Source: Flavobacteriales bacterium
Lineage (GTDB): Bacteria > Bacteroidota > Bacteroidia > Flavobacteriales_D > CAJJDF01
Reading direction: 5' to 3'
Assembly (NCBI GenBank): GCA_049609665.1
Contig: JBMYYT010000022.1
Location: 1 to 17,975, forward strand
Length of the DNA stretch: 17,975 nt
Positions 4,736 to 17,975 of the stretch are shown here, in pieces; position 1 is the stretch's first letter, and every line of letters begins with the position of its first letter. The notes beneath the pieces were generated by a model. It was not told the DNA's origin. It did no database searches and saw only the letters and a program-made list of their open reading frames with translations. The position numbers and the translations under genes are program-made.

Positions 4736-5869
4736 TTATTTAAGCTTTAAGCCTAATTTGTATGCCTCAATTAACATTTCATCCAAATCAGCATCTCCTT
4801 GGTTGGAAAGAATAATAGCTCCCACTTTGGTTGATCTATTAAAAGCCATTACTGTAGAAACTCCTTGTTCACCTCCATCATGGCCCCATAGACCATTCTC
4901 AGCATCAAGTTCAAACAAGTGTAATCCTATTTCGTTGTTAAGAGAAGGAATTTGTTTTGTGAGCATTTGGTTTATAACTGAAGAAGATAACAGCTGATGA
5001 TTATTAGAACTTCCACCATTTAGTAACGCCTGTATTAATTTATGTAGATCTAAACTGGTAGATCGTAGACCACCATTGGGATAATCAGTAAAAGTATAAT
5101 GTCCTATGGCTTCGTACCTTCCTAATCTATAATTATAAGGTTGAACTATTGGTTTTGAAATTTCATCTAATCTCCAGAATGAATTAGTCATTCCTAAGGG
5201 AGAGAAAATATTTTGTTTACAATACGCATTAAAGTCTACACCTGAAATTTCTTGCACTAACAATCCAATCAGGGCATTCCCTACATTACTATATTCATAA
5301 TTAGTACCTGGAGCAAAATCATGAAAGTTATCATTAGCATCGTAGTATCTACCGGATGGCACCAAATAATCCTGTAAGAAAGAAGAAAGAGAAATAGGAC
5401 TATCTATACCGTAATAATATTGATTATCTAATTCACTCCCATCATCTATTCCCGAAGTATGAGTTAGCAGCATTCTAAAAGTAATATCTTGACTGTGGTT
5501 AGGAATTGATACACTAAAAGGTAAATGATCGTTTATTTTATCATCAAGTAAGAATTTACCCTCTTCGTGGAGTTGCAGCAGTGCAATTGCTGTAATCACT
5601 TTGGAAATAGAGGCAAGTAAAAAAGGGTGGTCATTTTTAAGGGATATATTTTGTTGTAAATGTGTTTTTCCCAACAGGTTTTGGTACAAGATTTCTTCCT
5701 TGCTGAATAATAAAACTGACATGGCAGGGATCTTTTGAAAATCCATTTCGTCCTCTAAATATTGGGTAAATTCTTCAATATTAGATATTTCAACTACTTC
5801 CTTTTTACAATTACTTAGAGTAACTAAAACCAGCAAGGCTATAAATGAGGTATACAATAATTTTTTCAT
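4736..5869 (-). CDS. Serine hydrolase, beta-lactamase / penicillin-binding-protein-like family (class C type)
   Basis: Signal peptide or lipoprotein-like N-terminus (MKKLLYTSFIALLVLVTLSNC). It has an S-x-x-K active-site motif (LLASISKVITAIALLQL), a Y-x-N-like motif (YEYSNVGNALIG) and a C-terminal H-D-G-G (KTG-box-like) region, typical of the beta-lactamase fold. Confidence 0.75.
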   Translation of the reverse strand: MKKLLYTSFIALLVLVTLSNCKKEVVEISNIEEFTQYLEDEMDFQKIPAMSVLLFSKEEILYQNLLGKTHLQQNISLKNDHPFLLASISKVITAIALLQLHEEGKFLLDDKINDHLPFSVSIPNHSQDITFRMLLTHTSGIDDGSELDNQYYYGIDSPISLSSFLQDYLVPSGRYYDANDNFHDFAPGTNYEYSNVGNALIGLLVQEISGVDFNAYCKQNIFSPLGMTNSFWRLDEISKPIVQPYNYRLGRYEAIGHYTFTDYPNGGLRSTSLDLHKLIQALLNGGSSNNHQLLSSSVINQMLTKQIPSLNNEIGLHLFELDAENGLWGHDGGEQGVSTVMAFNRSTKVGAIILSNQGDADLDEMLIEAYKLGLKLK

Positions 5870-6893: not shown

Positions 6894-8000
6894 CTATGTT
6901 TTAACAGAAAAAATTTCTTTTAGTTGTTTTACCATACCACCGTTTCCAGTAACTGATATTTCACCAATTTTATCGGCAATTTTTTCTACGTATTCCATCT
7001 CTTTCAGCTGCATCAGCATTGGGTTGTCTTCCATTAGCTTGGCTGTGTTCAACAAACTTCTTGTTTGTGCAGTTTCTTCTCTTCGAGTAATGGTGTTCGC
7101 TTGTGCTTTTTTCTGAGCAACCAATACCTGGTTCATAATTTCTTTTACATCACCCGGTAAGATAATATCTCTGATTTCAGCCTGAGATACTTTTATTCCC
7201 AGGTATTTAGCTTCATTCTCAACCATATTCAAGATCTTATCGCTCATCTCAGATTTGTTTTCCAAAAGCTGATCTAAAGTGAATTGACCAATATAAGCAC
7301 GCAATTTAGTTTGTAGCAATACGTAAAGCATTTTGTCAAATCCTTTGTTGTCCAACAATGCTTTTTTAATATCTACAATAGAATATGTCGCATCCAAGTT
7401 GATTCTTAAATTTGCTTTGTCTTGAGTCAAAATTTCTTGACCATTTACTTCCAAGATTTGCTGACGTAAGTCTGCAATTTTAAGTTCAATCTTGTTGTTG
7501 TTTCGCCAGAAGTTGTAAAAACCACTTTCCAGTTCTTTTACGAATCTACCATCTACGATAAGTAAAGCTTTTTCGTTTGAAAGCACTTCGTATTTTAGCA
7601 TATAGTTGGTAAGTACGATATTAGTTAGCATCAAATCGGCAAGTTTTTTAGGCACTTCCAATTCAGAAGTATCTACTTTCTTGTATTCAATTTTCATTGG
7701 ATTTTTCCAGAAAACGTAGTTTCCTTTTGAAATTACTTCTTTGAATAAACCATTTTCATATTTGAATAAGAGTTCATTTTCTTTTACCTCATATTTGTTA
7801 ACGAGGTTTTCAAGAGTTTCATCTTCAAACAGCAATTTCTGTTCGTTTGTTAGATTCAAAGGTGCAAGAATGTTGTAGACTCTTACATCTTCTTTCCATT
7901 TTACCCAATATTTCTGACCTTCGGTTAATACTTTAACCAATTTCTTGTCTTTTGTAACCAAGGCAACTTGGTATGTTTTTATAGTTATTAATCGTATCAT
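6894..8000 (-). CDS. SPFH / band-7 (stomatin-prohibitin-flotillin-HflK/C) domain protein
   Basis: 368 aa. The central and C-terminal region (...KALLDNKGFDKMLYVLLQTKLRAYIGQFTLDQLLENKSEMSDKILNMVENEAKYLGIKVSQAEIRDIILPGDVKEIMNQVLVAQKKAQANTITRREETAQT...) fits the SPFH fold plus a coiled-coil tail. The start has an A-rich context (caaacaaaATG). The gene lies immediately downstream of, and co-directional with, the tRNA-like array. Confidence 0.7.
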   Translation of the reverse strand: MIRLITIKTYQVALVTKDKKLVKVLTEGQKYWVKWKEDVRVYNILAPLNLTNEQKLLFEDETLENLVNKYEVKENELLFKYENGLFKEVISKGNYVFWKNPMKIEYKKVDTSELEVPKKLADLMLTNIVLTNYMLKYEVLSNEKALLIVDGRFVKELESGFYNFWRNNNKIELKIADLRQQILEVNGQEILTQDKANLRINLDATYSIVDIKKALLDNKGFDKMLYVLLQTKLRAYIGQFTLDQLLENKSEMSDKILNMVENEAKYLGIKVSQAEIRDIILPGDVKEIMNQVLVAQKKAQANTITRREETAQTRSLLNTAKLMEDNPMLMQLKEMEYVEKIADKIGEISVTGNGGMVKQLKEIFSVKT

Positions 8001-8324: not shown

Positions 8325-8430
8325 CATCGGGAGATGGAATCGAACCACCGTCACATACATTATCAGTGTATTGCTCTACCGTTTAGTCATACATTAGAAG
8401 TGTATTGCTTTTCCATTTAGCTATCCCGAT
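8325..8430 (-). ncRNA. tRNA-Ile(GAU)-like, 105 nt, with a ~40-nt internal duplication or insertion in the D-loop region that creates a second anticodon-like hairpin (UCU)
   Basis: Minus-strand RNA parses as follows. Acceptor 5' strand ATCGGGA, then UA, then GCU. Next comes an insert carrying the hairpin ATACA-CUUCUAA-UGUAU. Then AACGGUAGAGC, A, the anticodon arm ATACA-CUGAUAA-UGUAU (GAU), variable GUGAC, T-arm GGTGG-TTCGATT-CCATC, acceptor 3' strand TCCCGAT and discriminator G. The acceptor strands ATCGGGA / TCCCGAT pair perfectly. The segment GCAATACACTnnTAATGTATG occurs twice in tandem. Confidence 0.45.
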
Positions 8431-8431
8431 T

Positions 8432-8500
8432 TCTCGGGAGCAGGACTCGAACCTGCATCGACTTGTTCTATTACTCTAACCAACTGAGTTAAACTTCAAT
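8432..8500 (-). pseudogene. Truncated tRNA-like gene: D-arm and T-arm/acceptor are present, the anticodon arm is deleted, and the acceptor strands do not pair
   Basis: Minus-strand RNA reads ...UUUAACUCAGUUGGUUAGAGU-AAUAGAACAAGUCGAU-GCAGG-UUCGAGU-CCUGC-UCCCGAG-A. Only 16 nt separate the D-stem from the T-stem, so there is no room for an anticodon arm. Confidence 0.4.
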
Positions 8501-8525
8501 TAGAAGTTATCGGATTTGAACCGAT
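8501..8525 (-). pseudogene. Orphan tRNA 3' fragment (T-arm ATCGG-TTCAAAT-CCGAT plus acceptor), with no matching 5' half downstream
   Basis: Plus strand reads agaagtt-ATCGG-ATTTGAA-CCGAT. No complementary acceptor strand, D-arm or anticodon arm lies within ~90 nt. Confidence 0.35.
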
Positions 8526-8769
8526 GCCCTTTGAACATGAGATTTATGGATATTCTCGAACCTTCAAATCAAGTTGAATACAAATGCATCATCCAACGAA
8601 TTGGAAAGACTTGTACAATAGTGCTATACTGAAACACCCAACAGGACTTGATTGATATCTTGACTCTTACGAGTTATATTTTAAAGAACGAACGCCATTT
8701 CTTAATGACAATTCAAAGTAAAAGAACTACTACGCAATTAATTTACGTAGTAATTTTTTTTAAAATTAG

Positions 8770-12968: not shown

Positions 12969-14021
12969 TTATTTATAAAACTCAATCCTAATCTCCCTCA
13001 TAACAGTTTCAATATATTCCTTATCAGGCTCTTCAGGCAGTCTTGATTCAGAAAACAAAGTACTTAACTCATTCTTTTTAGACTCAGCCAACTCAACCAA
13101 TTCTTCGTATTCAAAATTTCCTTTTTTTACTGATAATAAATACTCTCTGTCAGCTCGCCTTACATTCAAAGTTCCTTCTGTTGCTATTTCTTCTGCCATT
13201 TTTAATAGACGAATAGTATGCATCATGTTTTTAGAATCATAATTTTTACCATGCTGAACATTACTTGCGTATCTCTCTTCATTTCTTTTTTTAGTCCATT
13301 CCCAGTATTCTTTATATTGCTTGCAATAAGTAGAATAGCTTTCCATGTGAAAAGTTAATATTGCTATGGGTTCTTCTTCTTTGGGTACGGAACTTAATGC
13401 GATGTCATTTGATTTCTCATTTTTCACTATTCCTTTATAGGGGATTGTAGGATTACGATATAGGCTAAAACAGTTCTTGAAATTAGTAATTTTCACTAAT
13501 CCACATTCGTTCTGATTTATTTCTTTACCTTTTAAAAAGGAATTCAAAGATTGAGTTTTTTTGCCAGAGTAAACAAAACAAAAATCAAGTACTCCTTTTC
13601 GTATTTCGGATATTGGATTGACAATTTTCTTGTTCAATCCTCGAGCTTTTTTTATTTGTGCGAAAGCATAATTTGCGAATGATTTTTCACATTTTTTGGA
13701 TAAAAAATCAGAAAGTTGAAACCGATCAAACAAAGGATGTTTGAACAATATGGAGTCTTCGGGCATACTTAACAATTCAAGTATGTTTGGATTGTTTTTG
13801 AGCGCTAATTCTACAAATTTGTTTAGTTCATAATAAACCACATCGTTTTTCTCATCGTTTATTTGAGAGGTATATTCCAATGAATAGTATTTTGCTCTTG
13901 GCAAGATGAAAACTCCTTTTATATCTGTATCCGAGTGTTCGTTATCCAAACCATATGCTTTGCTGCCACATATGGTTTTGAATAATATACAGTTTGATTT
14001 TTCTAATTCTTCTAAAGTCAT
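12969..14021 (-). CDS. Pol-beta-superfamily nucleotidyltransferase (minimal NTase fold), paralog 1; resembles the RNA-ligase-associated RlaP-type NTases
   Basis: The N-terminal motif ICGSKAYGLDNEHSDTDIKGVFILP is a G-S-x-A-x-G...D-x-D NTase signature. The ATGA overlap with the upstream gene indicates translational coupling. The ~250-aa C-terminal region is alpha-rich. Confidence 0.6.
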   Translation of the reverse strand: MTLEELEKSNCILFKTICGSKAYGLDNEHSDTDIKGVFILPRAKYYSLEYTSQINDEKNDVVYYELNKFVELALKNNPNILELLSMPEDSILFKHPLFDRFQLSDFLSKKCEKSFANYAFAQIKKARGLNKKIVNPISEIRKGVLDFCFVYSGKKTQSLNSFLKGKEINQNECGLVKITNFKNCFSLYRNPTIPYKGIVKNEKSNDIALSSVPKEEEPIAILTFHMESYSTYCKQYKEYWEWTKKRNEERYASNVQHGKNYDSKNMMHTIRLLKMAEEIATEGTLNVRRADREYLLSVKKGNFEYEELVELAESKKNELSTLFSESRLPEEPDKEYIETVMREIRIEFYK

Positions 14022-14767
14022 TGTTGAGTGTATTTTACGAAGAATGAATTGAAATCTTCTTGGTTAAATTTGTTATGTAAAACGGAATCTCGTTCAGCTT
14101 CATTTTTCTCGATTACTTTTTCCAAAGTTCTATAAAGCGAAGCATCCATCAAATAAAGAAAATCCTCGTTTTTAGATTCCTTCAATTTTATTAAATCTAC
14201 TATTTTTTCCTTAGTTTCTTCAGAAACTAATTCTAACAATTCATAAAATAAGACAGGTGGTATTGTGCCTTTTTCTCTTGCCCAAGTTGCCGCTAATGCT
14301 GTTCTCATGGCATAGAATAGGCTTTTCAATTTTACTTTGTCTTTTGGGTCAAATTCCAAGAATCGTTTACTCATGCTATGAAAATGAAAGAAAGTTGAAA
14401 CTGGATTGTTATTCTCTTTTGCCAATCGTTGTATATCTTTTAAAAACAACTCATCCCCAAAATAAACCATAGGGGAGTACAGCCACCCCAAAAGTGAGGC
14501 GTTTGATTTTGCTAACAATCTCAATGCTTTTCGCAAATCCCAACCCGATCCATCCAGCAAATCGCTGGTCATAAACTGGATAGTGTCCCTTTTCTCCCAA
14601 AGGTTTAAATACCATGCTGCGTTATGAACGTATATAAATCGCACATCATAATCAGAATCTGGAGATGGAAATCCCCAAGCTCTGCTTCCTGATTCACAAG
14701 CAAATAGTATTTTTATATTCTTTTCAGCTTCTATTTCTTTAAGCTTAGTTATTATTCTTGTTTTCAT
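14018..14767 (-). CDS. Pol-beta-superfamily nucleotidyltransferase, paralog 2 (RlaP-like)
   Basis: Motif LFACESGSRAWGFPSPDSDYDVRFIYV is G-S-x-A-x-G...D-x-D. The start is taken as the ATG at 14765-14767 (MKTRIITKLKE...) with an A-rich context. The longer listed ORF to 14824 would run through a tRNA-like hairpin. Confidence 0.6.
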   Translation of the reverse strand: MKTRIITKLKEIEAEKNIKILFACESGSRAWGFPSPDSDYDVRFIYVHNAAWYLNLWEKRDTIQFMTSDLLDGSGWDLRKALRLLAKSNASLLGWLYSPMVYFGDELFLKDIQRLAKENNNPVSTFFHFHSMSKRFLEFDPKDKVKLKSLFYAMRTALAATWAREKGTIPPVLFYELLELVSEETKEKIVDLIKLKESKNEDFLYLMDASLYRTLEKVIEKNEAERDSVLHNKFNQEDFNSFFVKYTQQ

Positions 14768-14781
14768 GATTTTAGTATTGT

Positions 14782-14821
14782 ACCTCCTGCCAGATTCGAA
14801 CTGGCACTCCGCAATATGCGG
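14782..14821 (-). ncRNA. tRNA 3'-end-like element (T-arm GCCAG-UUCGAAU-CUGGC plus 7 nt) in the leader of the NTase operon; the 7 nt read AGGAGGU (SD-like)
   Basis: Plus-strand 14782-14805 is ACCTCCT-GCCAG-ATTCGAA-CTGGC, a perfect 5-bp stem with the canonical T-loop. No pairing acceptor strand, D-arm or anticodon arm follows. An adjacent small hairpin CCGCA-ata-TGCGG lies at 14809-14821. Confidence 0.35.
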
Positions 14822-15102
14822 CAAATTGGCTCTAAATGCGCTTCCCTACTTTTATACTTGTTAATTTCGGTGCTTCTGCAAATTCTATTCATTAGTGAGC
14901 GTATCTCTAACAACTTCATCCAATCACTCCATGGTTTCGTTAATGGCTTTTATATTATTCTGATTTTTTTTTGTCTAATTAATTATTATATAATGCCGAA
15001 ATAGTATGAAAATAGTCCAATTTGATTGGACTATATTGAATACATCATCGGTATTACCACAGCTCTTCCCTTTAAGCTAAGGAGGTATTTTTCGGTATTA
15101 AT

Positions 15103-15666
15103 TTATCTATTACTTTTTTCAAATTGTGGTTTCCAATTTTTTGTTTTCATTATTGCTTTCACTTCTTCGTAGGACAAAGGGTAATAATCATGACAATCCA
15201 CTCCAATATCAAAAGATAAGGAAGTTGGGTCATCTGCTAAACTTCCATGGGAATGCCCGTATAAATGATAAGATCCCCAATGCGATGCATTCCATTCTCG
15301 AATTGAATAATGAAAAAGTACAATAAGTTGTTCTCCTCTTTCAAATTCTTCATCTTTTATAATTAACTCATGATAGTCCTTAATCCATTCGAATCTGGAT
15401 TGACAAGCTTGAGCAGATTTTTCATGGTTTCCATTTATAAGGTAAATCTTTCCATTTAATCTATCAAGAATTTTCCTTAGTTTGCCAGATGACATAAGAC
15501 CTACGTCACCTAAGTGATAGACTTCATCTTCTGGTTTTACTTTTTCGTTCCATTTTTGGATTAATACTTCGTCCATTTCTTCTGCGCTCTCAAAAGGGCG
15601 ATTAGTAAATTTAATTATGTTTTTGTGTCCGAAATGATGATCGGATGTAAAATATATGTTGTTCAT
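15103..15666 (-). CDS. Calcineurin-like metallophosphoesterase; candidate RNA-end phosphoesterase (2',3'-cyclic phosphate or 3'-phosphate processing)
   Basis: Metallophosphoesterase motifs in order: YFTSDHHFGH (motif I, D-x-H), HLGDVG (motif II, GD), LINGNHE (motif III, GNH[DE]), then later His-containing motifs (LFHYS..., YGHSHG). 187 aa. Confidence 0.75.
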   Translation of the reverse strand: MNNIYFTSDHHFGHKNIIKFTNRPFESAEEMDEVLIQKWNEKVKPEDEVYHLGDVGLMSSGKLRKILDRLNGKIYLINGNHEKSAQACQSRFEWIKDYHELIIKDEEFERGEQLIVLFHYSIREWNASHWGSYHLYGHSHGSLADDPTSLSFDIGVDCHDYYPLSYEEVKAIMKTKNWKPQFEKSNR

Positions 15667-15739: not shown

Positions 15740-16303
15740 TTATTTTCTTTTCCAGAACCACTTCTTTTTTTTAGGCTCTGGATCAGGTGCTTCCACCTTT
15801 TTTTTCTTGTTTTTAGGTTTCTTTTTCTTTGGCATTTTCGATTTTATTCTTTTCTTGAATTCATTCAAATACTCCATAAAACCATCGTTGTAGGCATACT
15901 TTTTAGCCACTTTGATTACTTCAAGTGCTTCTTTGTACTTTCCTTCACACTCAAGTAAGGATACTTTTCGAGCGTATATTACTGCCTTGTCAGATGCTTT
16001 TACTGTTAAGGCAAACTCAATTAATGTATGAGCTTTCGCGTAATCTTCATTCCAAATAAGCGCAAACAAGTAATGTGGGTATACAAAAAATGCATTCACA
16101 TCTTCTTCTAAAGCTTCTTGGTAATAGCCAATGGCTGCATCATAATTTGAGTAAGTATCGGCTTCAATTCTTCCCATCAAACACAACCCATGAGGGTTTT
16201 TTGGCTCATAGGATAATGCATAATTCAAAGATTCCACTGCTTCTTCCAGGTTATATGGATAATTATCTAATGCCTTTATTAAATATTGATTTCCTGTGTT
16301 CAT
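15740..16303 (-). CDS. TPR-like helical-repeat protein with a C-terminal poly-lysine tail
   Basis: Alpha-helical repeats with a TPR flavour (YNLEEAVESLNYALSYEPKNPHGLCLMGRIEADTYSNYDAAIGYYQEALE..., KYKEALEVIKVAKKYAYNDGFMEYL). The C-terminus reads KSKMPKKKKPKNKKKKVEAPDPEPKKKKWFWKRK. The ATG at 16301-16303 (MNTGNQ...) with an A-rich context is preferred over the listed start at 16372. Confidence 0.5.
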   Translation of the reverse strand: MNTGNQYLIKALDNYPYNLEEAVESLNYALSYEPKNPHGLCLMGRIEADTYSNYDAAIGYYQEALEEDVNAFFVYPHYLFALIWNEDYAKAHTLIEFALTVKASDKAVIYARKVSLLECEGKYKEALEVIKVAKKYAYNDGFMEYLNEFKKRIKSKMPKKKKPKNKKKKVEAPDPEPKKKKWFWKRK

Positions 16304-16480
16304 TTTGTTTTGTTTTTTTAAATGGAGAGGAGTAAATTCTCGTGAAATATGGTTTGTGAGATTCTGAATCAAGTTTAGAATGACTGATGAAAGATAGACC
16401 TCTTAATCTCGTCCCAAATTTTCAAAAAGAAGATTTTTTGGTTGTGATAATAGTATATCAAGTGATTTTTCGTTTTTTTC

Positions 16481-16510
16481 TAACATCTAACATCTAACAT
16501 CTAACATCTA
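16481..16510. repeat. Tandem heptanucleotide repeat (TAACATC) x4.3, overlapping the prfH stop codon and 3' flank
   Basis: The plus strand reads taacatc-taacatc-taacatc-taacatc-ta. On the minus strand this is (GATGTTA)n. The prfH stop TAG and its last two codons lie inside the array. Confidence 0.8.
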
Positions 16511-17193
16511 TTTTCTCTCCTCCATTCTTGTTCATTCGTTTTTCGTTTTGTTCTGTATTTTTTCGGTTTTTTATCCAGTTTAAAATCCTTTGACTTAAAA
16601 ACCTTTACTGGATTTCCTCTTTGTAAATTCAGGTGATTGTTCCACACTCCTTCTTCATTGGTTTTGATTAATGAGAGTTGATGTTCGTTCCAAGCTTTTT
16701 CTAACCTTATTTTGGCCAATTTTTTATTTTGAACTTGAGATCTTGTGTCTATCACTTTCACACTAATTCCAGTAGGTAGGTGAGTGGCTCTAATTGCCGA
16801 ACTTACTTTATTCACATGTTGTCCTCCAGGACCAGAACTTCGTGTTGCTTCATAGCGTATGTCTTTTTGATTCAATGCTTTAATACTGCTTTGTTCAATT
16901 TCGAATACTCCTACAAACCAGTTTTTTCGTTTATGGTATTTTCTAAAAGTAGATGTTCCTATCCATTGAATGGTTCCAATCCAATCATTTCCAAGCCCCT
17001 TGTTTTTTGTTGTATCTATCCACAACGAAGCCGAGTATAAATTGCCATTGATATTACTGGGTTCTCGAGTTATTATCTCATGATAACAGTCAGCTGCTTT
17101 ACACTCTTTTATGAGTTTTTTAAGCACTTGACTCACCACGAAACAACATTCTTCAGGCCCTCGTCCAGAGGTTATTTGTATGTATTTTTTCAT
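16501..17193 (-). CDS. prfH: Peptide chain release factor H (PrfH; RF-like with GGQ, lacking a codon-recognition domain) with a basic C-terminal extension
   Basis: N-terminus MKKYIQITSGRGPEECCFVVSQVLKKLIKE matches the PrfH N-terminus as recalled from E. coli, which includes GPEECC. GGQ motif is present in RSSGPGGQHVNKVSSAIRATHLPTGI. It lies directly downstream of rtcB, the known rtcB-prfH arrangement. The tail is ...KKPKKYRTKRKTNEQEWRRENRC. Confidence 0.85.
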   Translation of the reverse strand: MKKYIQITSGRGPEECCFVVSQVLKKLIKECKAADCYHEIITREPSNINGNLYSASLWIDTTKNKGLGNDWIGTIQWIGTSTFRKYHKRKNWFVGVFEIEQSSIKALNQKDIRYEATRSSGPGGQHVNKVSSAIRATHLPTGISVKVIDTRSQVQNKKLAKIRLEKAWNEHQLSLIKTNEEGVWNNHLNLQRGNPVKVFKSKDFKLDKKPKKYRTKRKTNEQEWRRENRC

Positions 17194-17209
17194 TTTGTTT
17201 TTTCTATTT

Positions 17210-17331
17210 GTTCTCGATACTATTCATAAAACTCTCGTTTTCTGAATCACTCGAACTGACAACAATGTTTTTAACTGTCAGTTAGAGTGGTTTTTAGCAC
17301 ACGATAGTGTGATAAAAATTGTATCGAGAAC
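17210..17331. repeat. Perfect 11-bp inverted repeat (GTTCTCGATAC ... GTATCGAGAAC) bracketing ~100 bp of the rtcB-prfH intergenic region; each arm is followed by TATTCAT
   Basis: 17210-17220 is the reverse complement of 17321-17331. TATTCAT occurs at 17221-17227 and at 17333-17339. An internal 6-bp hairpin ACTGAC...GTCAGT is also present. Confidence 0.7.
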
Positions 17332-17338
17332 CTATTCA

Positions 17339-17975
17339 TTAATAATTCATTCTCACTATTTTAGGAGTAAAACTTCCAATAATATCCACCAACTCCGATT
17401 GGTTCCCCATAACTTTTTTTATGTCTTTGTAAGCCATTGGGGCTTCGTCAATTCCACCTCCAATTAGTGTTACTTCCTTTTCTTTTAGTTCTTTATTCAT
17501 TTCTGTTTGAGTAAAATTTTGTTTGCATTTACTTCTGGAAAACTCTCTTCCTGCTCCATGTGAAGCAGAGTTCAAGCTAAACTGGTTTCCTTTTCCTCTC
17601 ACAATAAAACCTGGCGCTGTCATTGAACCGGGAATAATCCCAAGTTCTCCTTTTGCTGCTGGAGTTGCTCCTTTTCTGTGGACTATACATTCCTCTCCAT
17701 TCACTTTTTGTTTCCAAGCAAAGTTGTGGTGGTTGTCAATTTTTGCTACCGCTCTTGTTCCTAATTGCTTAGAAATTCTGTCGTGAATATTGTCATGACA
17801 GGCTTTTGCATAATCTCCAGCTAAGTTCATAGCCAACCAGTATTCCATTCCATCGTGAGTGGTTGTGTCCAGCCAAGCCAGATGTTGCACTTGCTTTGGT
17901 AATGGGCATTGTTTTTCTGCCAATCGAGAATAATGCATCGCGATATTTGCTCCCAATCCTCGTGATCCACTGTGA
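17339..17975 (-). CDS. rtcB: RNA-splicing ligase RtcB (3'-phosphate/5'-hydroxyl ligase), C-terminal ~210 aa; the N-terminus lies beyond the window edge
   Basis: The frame stays open to base 17975. Upstream of the listed TTG it reads ...HSGSRGLGANIAM..., a conserved RtcB motif. Downstream motifs include KIDNHHNFAW, GIIPGSMTAPGFIV and NSASHGAGREFSR, the RtcB active-site His region. Confidence 0.85.
   Translation of the reverse strand, partial: HSGSRGLGANIAMHYSRLAEKQCPLPKQVQHLAWLDTTTHDGMEYWLAMNLAGDYAKACHDNIHDRISKQLGTRAVAKIDNHHNFAWKQKVNGEECIVHRKGATPAAKGELGIIPGSMTAPGFIVRGKGNQFSLNSASHGAGREFSRSKCKQNFTQTEMNKELKEKEVTLIGGGIDEAPMAYKDIKKVMGNQSELVDIIGSFTPKIVRMNY

What the first reader, a model, noticed from the sequence alone, without database searches (positions are those of the whole stretch)
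12969..14767. Translationally coupled pair of paralogous Pol-beta nucleotidyltransferases next to a tRNA array in which no gene encodes CCA
Both proteins begin with the minimal-NTase signature, GSKAYG...SDTD and GSRAWG...SDYD. Their stop and start overlap as ATGA. RlaP-type NTases of this form are predicted to add nucleotides to damaged RNA 3' ends, a CCA-repair-like activity, during ligase-mediated repair.

Every tRNA unit I folded in the array lacks an encoded CCA. The island also encodes a phosphoesterase that could clear 2',3'-cyclic phosphate ends. Two diverged paralogs may specify different nucleotides or substrates. I cannot distinguish this from a toxin-antitoxin-like NTase pair by sequence alone. 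Neither protein shows the small HEPN partner expected in a toxin-antitoxin pair; both are 250-350 aa.
Basis: partly seen in the sequence, partly recalled or inferred. Interest (0 to 1): 0.6.

Follow-up and report, generated by a model that had tools for sequence, protein, structure and literature searches.

The report
Paired RlaP RNA-repair nucleotidyltransferases in Flavobacteria
The two overlapping genes are two different members of the known RlaP family of RNA-end nucleotide-adding repair enzymes, a gene pair kept together across Bacteroidota inside a known type of RNA-repair island; the missing CCA on the neighbouring tRNA genes is normal for this phylum and says nothing special about them.

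Summary
Two minus-strand ORFs, 14018-14767 (249 aa) and 12969-14021 (350 aa), overlap by ATGA. Both carry GS...DxD motifs and both match Pfam RlaP (PF10127, E 4e-70 and 2e-23).

They belong to two distinct RlaP subfamilies. One is short and canonical (A). The other is long and resembles phage nucleotidyltransferases (B). Homology is detectable only in the catalytic core.

The A-to-B tandem is conserved. A lies within 350 nt upstream of B in 57 of 78 Bacteroidota loci that have room, and stop and start overlap in 33. RtcB, a WYL regulator, tRNA arrays, PrfH-RtcB and a Band-7 gene are usually nearby. This is the RtcB/Band-7/tRNA-like repair island described in 2016.

A 2025 preprint showed that two Pseudomonas RlaP enzymes add 1-2 nucleotides to RNA 3'-OH ends, preferring broken anticodon loops. 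The toxin-antitoxin and antibiotic-resistance readings are not supported.

The CCA argument fails. Bacteroidota tRNA genes generally template C74 but not CCA (183 of 184 rRNA-operon tRNAs), so a canonical CCA enzyme must exist. One phage carries both a B-type RlaP and a canonical CCA-adding enzyme.

Verdict: a new member of a known kind. Why two RlaPs are coupled remains open.

The parts
14018..14767 (-). RlaP-A: short canonical RlaP nucleotidyltransferase, 249 aa. Has GS(27-28) and D39/D41/D72, invariant in 23 orthologues.
   Evidence: PF10127 match over its full length, E 3.9e-70. phrog_14344, E 1.2e-61. Invariant residues from alignment A2. AF2 model with pLDDT 92 and pTM 0.88, showing an N-terminal alpha/beta NTase domain plus a C-terminal helical domain.
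12969..14021 (-). RlaP-B: long RlaP-family nucleotidyltransferase, 350 aa. NTase core with G19 S20, D31/D33/D60 and E65 invariant. The model also shows a beta-rich middle region (about residues 144-224) and a C-terminal helical region that the Pfam model does not cover.
   Evidence: PF10127 match on residues 4-125 only, E 1.7e-23. phrog_388 match along the whole protein, E 1.5e-51. Invariant residues from alignment A1. AF2 model with pLDDT 78.7 and a poorly modelled core. Foldseek matches to phage nucleotidyltransferases down to E 4e-14. End-to-end but weak alignment with T4 NrdC.11 (20% identity, E 0.015).
14018..14021 (-). ATGA stop/start overlap (translational coupling of A to B).
   Evidence: Read directly. 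Among 57 related loci with A within 350 nt of B, 33 have overlapping stop and start (ATGA or TGATG/TAATG).
15103..15666 (-). Calcineurin-type metallophosphoesterase, 187 aa, upstream on the same strand. Inferred to heal 2',3'-cyclic-P or 3'-P ends to the 3'-OH that RlaP needs.
   Evidence: PF12850 and PF00149. phrog_547, E 2.3e-53. Closest solved relative is Aquifex aq_1665 (1xm7, uncharacterised), E 2.3e-11. Present in 1532 phage records. The substrate is inferred, not shown.
14780..14830 (-). tRNA 3'-half remnant (T arm GCCAG-TTCGAAT-CTGGC followed by AGGAGGT-A-C) in the 335-nt spacer upstream of RlaP-A. Probably a decayed tRNA gene, not a functional RNA.
   Evidence: tRNA covariance model scores 15 bits, E 2.6. 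Unique in the window and absent from the 83 loci held at that point. Fold is no better than shuffled sequence (z 0.84).
11750..12937 (-). Unknown protein of up to 395 aa with an internal duplication, downstream of RlaP-B and before the next terminator-like hairpin. Variable cargo, not part of the conserved module.
   Evidence: No Pfam, NCBIfam, PHROG or PADLOC hit. No tblastn hit in 82 related loci. Terminator-like site at 11550-11528 on the minus strand.
10480..11280 (-). ATP-grasp-like protein, 266 aa. Variable cargo.
   Evidence: Only sub-threshold Pfam and NCBIfam hits (YheCD, TTL, RimK). Found in one related locus, L068.
8770..10256 (-). tRNA array: 10 canonical tRNAs (Ser-GCU, Cys, Glu, Tyr, Ser-UGA, Ile-UAU, Leu-UAG, Leu-UAA, Arg-ACG, His) plus several degenerate or insertion-bearing tRNA-like units. 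None encodes CCA. All 10 canonical genes encode C74.
   Evidence: ARAGORN, Rfam, 3' ends. Gene order parallels the array of L211.
8325..8640 (-). tRNA-like non-coding units next to the Band-7 gene, candidate 'b7a-tRNA'. One (8325-8430) has tandemly duplicated D and anticodon arms.
   Evidence: Rfam tRNA hit of 35.4 bits at 8332-8390 and a weak YrlA hit of 32 bits at 8380-8483. A 33-nt direct repeat at 8354-8386 and 8388-8420. The b7a-tRNA concept is quoted in 10.1101/312249.
6894..8000 (-). SPFH/Band-7 protein, a recurrent component of the island.
   Evidence: PF01145, E 2.4e-26. Present in many related loci.
15740..17975 (-). TPR protein (15740-16372), peptide-chain release factor H (16501-17193) and an RtcB RNA ligase cut by the contig end (17339-17975). 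This is the known ribosome rescue and repair module.
   Evidence: TIGR03072 release_prfH, E 1e-69. PF01139 RtcB, HMM positions 192-423. The PrfH-RtcB-TPR neighbourhood is described in PMC6514570.

Best explanation
The two genes encode two different RlaP-family, template-independent RNA 3'-end nucleotidyltransferases. RlaP-A (249 aa) is the short canonical type. RlaP-B (350 aa) is a long type whose relatives are common in large phages. Together they form a conserved, co-translated two-gene module of a Bacteroidota RNA-damage island. That island is typically WYL regulator | RtcB - RlaP-A - RlaP-B - tRNA array - Band-7, often with PrfH-RtcB2-TPR.

Proposed mechanism:
1. A tRNA- or rRNA-cleaving toxin from a phage-defence system or a competitor breaks RNAs, and some such toxins also trim 1-2 nucleotides.
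2. The broken 2',3'-cyclic-P or 3'-P end is converted to 3'-OH. In this window the adjacent metallophosphoesterase is the candidate.
3. [quoted passage not shown]
4. A ligase reseals the RNA. Meanwhile the array supplies replacement tRNAs and PrfH/RtcB2 rescues damaged ribosomes.

What is shown here: family membership, intact catalytic residues in both proteins, conservation of the tandem, and its linkage to RtcB, tRNA arrays and Band-7.

What is taken from the literature: RlaP biochemistry, demonstrated only for two Pseudomonas enzymes in a preprint.

What is inferred: that A and B both have this activity, that the phosphoesterase heals ends, and that the two enzymes divide labour (different substrates or steps) or act as a complex. 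They are not the CCA-maturation enzymes of the array.
For: - Family: PF10127 hits at E 3.9e-70 and 1.7e-23. Distinct PHROG families 14344 and 388.
- Catalytic residues are invariant in both orthologue sets and align with each other.
- Conservation from the B side: the genome scan found at least 578 relatives. Among the 80 best loci plus two fetched earlier, A lies upstream on the same strand in 69 of 78 loci with room and within 350 nt in 57. Stop and start overlap in 33.
- Conservation from the A side: 3 of 3 A homologues checked have a roughly 350-aa RlaP immediately downstream and an RtcB upstream.
- Context within 10 kb: RtcB in 39 of 82 loci, PrfH in 18, at least 5 tRNAs in 23 and at least 1 tRNA in 40.
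- The compact island WYL | RtcB - A - B - 11 tRNAs - Band-7 in L211 is flanked by housekeeping genes. Similar islands appear.
- Each subfamily occurs singly in large phages. The A type lies 0.7 kb from an Rnl1-like ligase.
- Biochemistry of RlaP: adds 1-2 NMP to RNA 3'-OH, prefers Mn2+, prefers the 5' half of an anticodon-loop break, is inactive on 3'-P ends, and improves aminoacylation of a tRNA that had lost one nucleotide.
- Island type: RtcB + Band-7 + b7a-tRNA and PrfH-RtcB-TPR have been described before.
Against: - No enzyme of either Bacteroidota subfamily has been assayed. The B type shares only its core with characterised RlaPs, and its model is poor in that core.
- RlaP products end in 3'-OH, but RtcB needs 3'-P or 2',3'-cyclic-P. 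The preprint itself flags this incompatibility. In the commonest arrangement RtcB is the only ligase next to the pair.
- In this window the only RtcB is the PrfH-linked one, 2.6 kb upstream of RlaP-A. No WYL gene is present on this contig, which ends inside the RtcB gene.
- The phosphoesterase is variable cargo, found next to the pair in only a few loci, and its substrate is unknown.
- Nothing here explains why two RlaPs are needed.
Confidence: 0.65

Rival explanations
1. A dedicated two-enzyme CCA-(re)building system for the array tRNAs. One paralogue would add C75 and the other A76 to array transcripts that template only C74, by analogy with the split CC-adding and A-adding enzymes of some bacteria.
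For: - tRNA arrays lie within 10 kb of the pair far more often than chance: at least 5 tRNAs in 23 of 82 loci.
- Array tRNAs template C74 in 255 of 275 cases but CCA in only 11.
- The two paralogues are tightly coupled.
Against: - C74 without CCA is a phylum-wide property: 183 of 184 rRNA-operon tRNA-Ile/Ala genes, and PMC5143459. A canonical CCA enzyme is therefore already required for every tRNA.
- 42 of 82 loci have the pair and no tRNA gene within 10 kb.
- Phage PBES 02 has both a PF01743 CCA enzyme and a B-type RlaP.
- PfRlaP showed little NTP specificity, and its activity on the tRNA 3' end fell when the tRNA halves were annealed.
- Neither protein matches PF01743.
Confidence: 0.1
2. An obligate heteromer in which only one paralogue catalyses. 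The other supplies RNA recognition or produces an RtcB-compatible end (for example by acting on a 3'-phosphate). The pair would then be one enzyme rather than two.
For: - Conserved gene order and overlapping stop/start imply co-expression in fixed proportion.
- B has an extra beta-rich region and a diverged C-terminal region not shared with A.
- The unresolved 3'-OH versus 3'-P incompatibility with RtcB leaves room for a second activity.
Against: - Both proteins keep all three catalytic carboxylates and the GS motif invariant across orthologues.
- Each subfamily works without the other in phages.
Confidence: 0.15
3. A toxin-antitoxin or anti-phage signalling nucleotidyltransferase pair (MNT-HEPN/MntA type, AbiEii/MenT type, or a Hailong HalB-like oligonucleotide synthase).
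For: - Minimal-NTase signature at the N-terminus.
- A weak MntA hit (E 0.0045, 16.9 bits).
- The A model has Hailong HalB among its fold neighbours (E 5e-5, TM 0.45-0.51).
Against: - The MntA score is far below the 60-bit cut-off.
- No PADLOC hit for any island protein apart from one marginal hit on the Band-7 protein (E 6.3e-4, 17.8 bits, PDC-M44B).
- No HEPN or HalA-like partner is present. The proteins are 249 and 350 aa.
- The full-length RlaP match is decisive.
- The neighbours are RNA ligases and tRNAs in dozens of genomes.
Confidence: 0.03
4. An antibiotic (aminoglycoside or lincosamide) nucleotidyltransferase.
For: The top Foldseek PDB hits of the A model are kanamycin NTase/ANT(4') (E 2.7e-5). 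LinB and AadA appear lower in the list.
Against: - TM-scores are only 0.23-0.46 with 10-15% identity.
- No sequence-profile hit to any ANT family.
- The context is RNA repair.
- These hits rank first because no RlaP sequence is detectable in the PDB copy.
Confidence: 0.02

Closest known systems
[quoted passage not shown] Defined by Burroughs & Aravind 2016. PfRlaP and PaRlaP characterised by Carruthers, Fatma & Huang 2025 (preprint PMC12776372).
   Same: Both window proteins pass the family model. Both keep the GS and three-carboxylate active site. Both sit in RNA-ligase (RtcB) neighbourhoods. The RlaP-A model has the same two-part layout reported for PfRlaP: an N-terminal NTase domain, a C-terminal helical domain and a final helix.
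   Different: The characterised enzymes are single genes lying between rtcB and rtcA under RtcR control in Pseudomonas. Here two diverged subfamilies are fused into a co-translated pair. Control is apparently by a WYL regulator in related loci, and rtcA is absent. RlaP-B matches the family model only in its first 125 residues and has extra domains. Neither subfamily has been assayed.
RtcB / Band-7 / b7a-tRNA RNA-repair system (Burroughs & Aravind 2016, as quoted in bioRxiv 10.1101/312249), and the PrfH-RtcB-TPR ribosome rescue module (PMC6514570, PMC9304027).
   Same: The window contains a Band-7 gene, adjacent tRNA-like RNAs, and PrfH, RtcB and TPR in the same orientation. Related loci contain RtcB directly upstream of the pair.
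   Different: The 2016 paper could not be read here, so I cannot say whether the two-RlaP tandem or the long canonical tRNA arrays were described in it. Here the 'tRNA-like' component is a full array of up to 25 tRNA genes (L011) plus degenerate units.
Phage T4 NrdC.11 and PHROG 388 phage nucleotidyltransferases.
   Same: RlaP-B has the same length class (336-351 aa). It aligns along the whole PHROG profile (E 1.5e-51) and end to end with NrdC.11. Its predicted fold matches phage NTases (E down to 4e-14).
   Different: Identity to NrdC.11 is only 20% (E 0.015 pairwise). The phage proteins occur singly, without an A-type partner.
Long tRNA arrays (L-arrays) co-regulated with rtcB in cyanobacteria (PMC8421152).
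   Same: A horizontally mobile tRNA array is associated with RNA-repair genes, with a proposed role under translational stress or tRNA cleavage.
   Different: Different phylum and a different regulator. No RlaP pair is reported there. In that paper rtcB and the array are co-regulated in Anabaena, whereas here they are contiguous.
Split CC-adding and A-adding class II tRNA nucleotidyltransferases (from my own knowledge of the literature; not checked here).
   Same: Two paralogous Pol-beta NTases could share the job of rebuilding a short 3' sequence.
   Different: Those enzymes belong to PF01743, which neither window protein matches. Nucleotide specificity has not been shown for any RlaP.

Membership tests
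RlaP (PF10127) | Sequence match to the family profile above the curated cut-off | tested here: met
   RlaP-A scores 236.8 bits and RlaP-B 84.1 bits against a cut-off of 23. For B only profile positions 10-139 of 249 are matched.
RlaP (PF10127) | Pol-beta NTase active site: hG[GS] motif, DxD, and a third carboxylate | tested here: met
   A has G27 S28, D39, D41 and D72. B has G19 S20, D31, D33 and D60 (plus E65). All are invariant in 23-sequence orthologue alignments and aligned to each other by hhalign. Assignment of the third carboxylate is by position in the predicted strand, not by geometry.
RlaP (PF10127) | Gene-neighbourhood association with an RNA ligase | tested here: met
   An RtcB gene lies on the same strand 2.6 kb upstream in the window. 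RtcB is within 10 kb in 39 of 82 related loci and often directly adjacent.
RlaP (PF10127) | N-terminal NTase domain plus C-terminal helical domain forming a cleft, with the last helix packing back on the NTase domain (PfRlaP crystal structure) | tested here: inconclusive
   The secondary-structure order of the RlaP-A model fits: N-terminal helix, beta-sheet, helical domain, final helix 236-247 (pLDDT 92). PfRlaP coordinates are not in the PDB copy, so no superposition was possible. RlaP-B has a different, larger C-terminal part.
RlaP (PF10127) | Adds 1-2 NMP to RNA 3'-OH | not testable with these tools
   Biochemistry is known only for PfRlaP and PaRlaP.
MNT-HEPN / MntA type VII toxin-antitoxin | Small (about 100-150 aa) minimal NTase matching the MntA/MNT profiles | tested here: not met
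   MntA_antitoxin scores 16.9 bits against a cut-off of 60, on A only. The proteins are 249 and 350 aa.
MNT-HEPN / MntA type VII toxin-antitoxin | Adjacent HEPN-domain toxin partner | tested here: not met
   No HEPN hit in any neighbouring ORF. No PADLOC hit for either NTase.
Antibiotic nucleotidyltransferases (ANT(4')/KNTase, LinB, AadA) | Sequence-profile membership in an ANT/Lnu family | tested here: not met
   No Pfam or NCBIfam ANT family reported at E <= 0.01. Only distant fold resemblance: TM <= 0.46 and 10-15% identity.
Class II CCA-adding enzyme / poly(A) polymerase (PF01743) | PolyA_pol head-domain profile match | tested here: not met
   No PF01743 hit for either protein. A phage carries both PF01743 and a B-type RlaP as separate genes.
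RtcB / Band-7 / b7a-tRNA repair island | Co-location of RtcB, an SPFH/Band-7 gene and tRNA-like RNA genes | tested here: met
   In the window: Band-7 at 6894-8000, tRNA-like units at 8325-8640, the array at 8770-10256, and RtcB at 17339-17975. The same trio occurs in L001, L003, L211, L212 and L213. The defining description is taken second-hand.

The most novel reading that the evidence does not exclude
RlaP-A and RlaP-B form an obligate two-enzyme machine, possibly a heteromer, with divided chemistry. Either each adds a defined nucleotide or acts on a defined damaged RNA, or the second enzyme converts the RlaP product into an end that RtcB can seal. That would resolve the 3'-OH versus 3'-P paradox left open by the 2025 RlaP study. 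A sub-variant is that they rebuild the last two nucleotides (C75, A76) on tRNAs after attack by toxins that target the CCA end.
Probability: 0.15. Interest if true: 0.6.

Novelty: new member of a known kind. Interest (0 to 1): 0.3.

Why it matters
RlaP enzymes are a recently characterised class of RNA-repair nucleotidyltransferases proposed to counter toxins that cut tRNAs and also trim them. This locus shows that across Bacteroidota two very different RlaP subfamilies are kept as a co-translated pair, next to RtcB and often next to spare tRNA arrays.

That gives a concrete and testable question: why are two enzymes needed? It also points to natural systems, such as Kordia algicida OT-1 and Flavobacterium or Tenacibaculum isolates, in which to study the uncharacterised long, phage-like subfamily and the unresolved hand-off from RlaP (3'-OH product) to RtcB (3'-P substrate).

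It does not reveal a new kind of system. The CCA angle that made the finding look special is explained by a phylum-wide property of tRNA genes.

Tried and rejected
- **C74 as an array-specific signal.** C74 is templated in 10 of 10 window tRNAs and 255 of 275 array tRNAs, followed by A-rich sequence. This looked like a link to an enzyme that adds two nucleotides. Rejected after the control on Bacteroidota rRNA-operon tRNA-Ile/Ala genes: 183 of 184 have C74 and 16 of 184 have CCA.
- **Solved-structure homologues by sequence.** Single sequences and profiles gave nothing at E < 0.1.
- **Foldseek of the RlaP-B model against PDB.** No significant hit, because the model is poor in the NTase core. 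The BFVD search did work.
- **tRNA-like piece upstream of RlaP-A as a Y-RNA or b7a-like regulator.** Only a 3' half is present. It scores 15 bits, folds no better than shuffles, and is not conserved in other loci.
- **Defence or toxin-antitoxin reading.** PADLOC gave no hit for either NTase and NCBIfam only a sub-threshold MntA hit.
- **Sigma-70 promoter scan.** Not informative: counts equal the shuffled expectation, and Bacteroidota use a different promoter consensus.
- **Burroughs & Aravind 2016 (PMC5062991).** Could not be read. Whether it already shows the two-RlaP tandem is unknown.
- **Phage origin of the tandem.** Phages carry A or B singly. No partner gene or tRNA lies within 6-10 kb in the three phage loci checked.
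Full report
**1. The observation**

The window is an NCBI MAG contig from a Flavobacteriales bacterium, exactly 17,975 bp long. On the minus strand, an ORF with an ATG at 14767 runs to a TGA at 14018-14020 (249 aa). NCBI annotates the same start. A second ORF starts at the ATG at 14021-14019 and ends at 12969 (350 aa). The sequence CAACAATGACTT shows the ATGA overlap.

The N-termini read ESGSRAWGFPSPDSDYDV and CGSKAYGLDNEHSDTDIKG, which is the minimal Pol-beta NTase signature. Both proteins pass the Pfam RlaP model (PF10127). The upstream one matches end to end (E 3.9e-70). The downstream one matches over its first 125 residues (E 1.7e-23).

**2. The two proteins are not close paralogues**

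- BLASTP aligns only 87 N-terminal residues at 31% identity.
- Profile-profile comparison of 23-sequence orthologue alignments finds homology only across 78 columns of the NTase core (97% probability).
- They fall in different PHROG families: 14344 for the short protein (RlaP-A) and 388 for the long one (RlaP-B), the latter matched along its whole length.
- Both keep the GS motif and three acidic residues invariant across orthologues. These are D39/D41/D72 in A and D31/D33/D60 in B. Both look catalytically competent.
- AlphaFold models A confidently (pLDDT 92, pTM 0.88) as an alpha/beta NTase domain followed by a helical domain and a terminal helix. That is the layout reported for the PfRlaP crystal structure.
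- B is modelled less well (pLDDT 78.7, weak in the core). It shows an additional beta-rich middle region and a long helical C-terminus.
- Neither protein has a solved relative detectable by sequence.
- The nearest PDB folds to A are kanamycin NTase, an uncharacterised NTase (3c18) and Hailong HalB, at TM 0.35-0.5 and 10-16% identity. That is superfamily-level architecture, not family membership.
- B's model matches predicted structures of phage nucleotidyltransferases (E down to 4e-14). B aligns end to end, weakly, with T4 NrdC.11, which the RlaP preprint places in the family.

**3. The tandem is a conserved module**

A scan of one genome per species found at least 578 relatives of RlaP-B, nearly all in Bacteroidota. 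I analysed the 80 best loci plus two fetched earlier.

- An A-type gene lies upstream on the same strand in 69 of the 78 loci that have room for it, and within 350 nt in 57.
- In 33 of those 57 the stop and start overlap. Counting from the junction sequences, 28 are ATGA and 5 are TGATG or TAATG.
- From the A side, three A homologues chosen independently all have a roughly 350-aa RlaP immediately downstream.
- Phages carry one type or the other, never both, in the loci examined.

**4. Context**

Within 10 kb of the pair, RtcB occurs in 39 of 82 loci. PrfH occurs in 18. At least five tRNA genes occur in 23 loci and at least one in 40.

Annotated examples give a recurring island: WYL regulator | RtcB - (small ORF) - RlaP-A - RlaP-B - tRNA array - Band-7. 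It is often accompanied by a second RtcB with PrfH and a TPR protein. Variable cargo includes an RNase T-like exonuclease, an AlkB-like oxygenase, an RNaseH-like protein, DUF434/DUF5616, a metallophosphoesterase and ATP-grasp enzymes. The most compact case, L211, is WYL | RtcB - A - B - 11 tRNAs - Band-7 between housekeeping genes.

The window carries a rearranged version, read on the minus strand:
- RtcB (cut by the contig end) - PrfH - TPR, then a terminator-like hairpin;
- phosphoesterase, a tRNA remnant, RlaP-A/B and an unknown 395-aa protein, then a terminator-like hairpin;
- an ATP-grasp gene, then a hairpin followed by a T run;
- the tRNA array, then a terminator-like hairpin;
- tRNA-like units and Band-7.

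This matches two published descriptions. One is the RtcB/Band-7/'b7a-tRNA' system of Burroughs & Aravind 2016, quoted; the original could not be read. The other is the PrfH-RtcB-TPR neighbourhood. An association of long tRNA arrays with rtcB is also known in cyanobacteria.

**5. What RlaP does**

A December 2025 preprint studied two Pseudomonas RlaPs encoded between rtcB and rtcA. Its findings:
- They add one or two NMPs to RNA 3'-OH ends, not to DNA or protein, and not to 3'-P ends.
- They show little NTP specificity and prefer Mn2+.
- They prefer the 5' half of an anticodon-loop break over the tRNA 3' end.
- Pre-treatment with RlaP improves aminoacylation of a re-ligated tRNA that had lost one nucleotide.

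The authors propose RlaP as an antidote to 'smart' ribotoxins such as RloC. They flag an unsolved problem: RlaP leaves a 3'-OH, whereas RtcB needs a 3'-phosphate. An earlier comparative-genomics prediction said the same. The preprint's main text does not mention tandem RlaPs or Bacteroidota.

**6. The CCA argument**

All ten canonical tRNAs in the window lack CCA. This is not diagnostic.
- I noticed that the array tRNAs almost always template C74: 10 of 10 in the window and 255 of 275 across related arrays. I tested whether this is array-specific.
- In 184 tRNA-Ile/Ala genes from Bacteroidota-type rRNA operons recovered from metagenomes, 183 have C74 and only 16 have CCA.
- The property is therefore phylum-wide, and a canonical CCA-adding enzyme must serve all tRNAs.
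- Half of the loci have the pair without tRNA genes nearby.
- A phage has a B-type RlaP 2 kb from a canonical PF01743 enzyme.
- The characterised RlaPs disfavour the tRNA 3' end.

A dedicated CCA role is unlikely. I put it at about 0.1.

**7. Most likely mechanism**

After toxin cleavage of tRNA or rRNA, sometimes with extra trimming, the ends are healed to 3'-OH. The adjacent phosphoesterase is the candidate here. Its family is common in phages, and its closest solved relative is uncharacterised. RlaP-A and RlaP-B then add back one or two nucleotides, and a ligase reseals the RNA. In parallel the array replaces lost tRNAs and PrfH/RtcB2 rescues ribosomes.

Shown here: membership, active-site conservation, synteny. 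Taken from the literature: the chemistry. Inferred: that both enzymes have it, the role of the phosphoesterase, and any division of labour. The tight coupling of two very different RlaPs suggests different substrates or steps, or a complex. Nothing I could compute discriminates between these.

**8. Alternatives rejected**

- Toxin-antitoxin or defence NTase: there is no HEPN or other partner, the MntA hit is sub-threshold, and there are no PADLOC hits for the NTases.
- Antibiotic NTase: there is only distant fold similarity.

**9. Verdict**

This is a correct observation of an ordinary but not yet studied member of a known system. The family and island type are known. The conserved two-subfamily tandem and the long B-type enzyme are uncharacterised and worth a biochemical look. 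Interest 0.3.

Noticed in passing
window 8770-8865, 8949-9086, 9438-9554 (minus strand): Three array tRNAs (Phe-GAA-like, Gln-UUG-like, Ile-GAU-like) carry 23-51 nt insertions in the T loop. The Gln-like one also has an insertion in the D loop. Orthologous tRNA-Phe and tRNA-Gln in the related array of L211 lack them. The inserted core is CTGAGC-N3-GTCGAAG and occurs in either orientation. These are probably pseudo-tRNAs disrupted by a small repeat, but three hits in T loops is odd.
   Followed up: partly
window 9254-9345 (minus strand); L006/L087 about 5070-5150: Directly after tRNA-Leu(UAG) there is a minihelix-like unit. It consists of an imperfect copy of the Leu acceptor/T-stem 5' side, the same repeat element, and then an exact 18-nt copy of the Leu 3' end (GAATCTCTCTCCCTGTAC). 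A homologous unit follows tRNA-Leu(UAG) in a genome whose RlaP-B is only 61% identical, so it may be functional.
   Followed up: partly
related loci L020, L026, L030 (intergenic between RlaP-A and RlaP-B); many other intergenic sites in L004-L083: The motif CTGAGC-N3-GTCGAAG with flanking complementary bases (for example GTCACACTGAGCTTGTCGAAGTGT) is a dispersed intergenic repeat in Flavobacteriia. Where it has inserted between the two RlaP genes, the stop/start overlap is lost. Rfam has no match for it.
   Followed up: partly
window 8325-8640 (minus strand), next to the Band-7 gene: tRNA-like units that ARAGORN does not call. One (8325-8430) has a normal acceptor and T arm but tandemly duplicated D plus anticodon arms (a 33-nt repeat, with anticodon loops reading UCU and GAU). 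It gives a weak YrlA hit (32 bits, below threshold). It is a candidate for the 'band-7-associated tRNA' predicted in 2016 and never validated.
   Followed up: partly
window 9727-9920 (minus strand): By eye, two further degenerate tRNA-like units lie between tRNA-Tyr and tRNA-Ser(UGA). They have paired acceptor stems but aberrant T and anticodon arms.
   Followed up: no
window 14780-14830 (minus strand): An orphan tRNA 3' half (T arm plus acceptor 3' strand plus A-C) lies in the spacer upstream of RlaP-A. It is not repeated in the window and is absent from the 83 related loci held when the search was run. It looks like a remnant of array decay or rearrangement.
   Followed up: yes
L090-L209 (metagenome rRNA operons); arrays in L001-L083: Bacteroidota tRNA genes template C74 almost universally but rarely C75-A76 (183 of 184 rRNA-operon tRNA-Ile/Ala genes have C74; 16 of 184 have CCA). 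I did not find this described in the one paper consulted on CCA templating. It may reflect how 3' ends are processed in this phylum.
   Followed up: partly
window 11750-12937 (minus strand): A protein of up to 395 aa with a clear internal duplication (two repeats of about 170 aa, each containing ...NEYFE...IEGYF...LYKDS.PEYP.RGMTL...). It has no hit in any family library and no tblastn hit in 82 related loci. It lies downstream of RlaP-B on the same strand, with no terminator-like site between them.
   Followed up: partly
window 9562-9635 (minus strand): The array includes a tRNA-Ile with a genomically encoded UAU anticodon, which to my knowledge is uncommon in bacteria.
   Followed up: no
L002/L007 (Kordia algicida OT-1): A much larger repair island. 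It holds Rnl1-like ligase, PNKP-like kinase/phosphatase, an R2K ATP-grasp, two RNase T-like genes, DUF434/DUF5616, a 419-aa RlaP, a B-type RlaP, an Rnl2-like ligase and 17 tRNA genes. The A-type gene there is extended and separated from B by one ORF.
   Followed up: no
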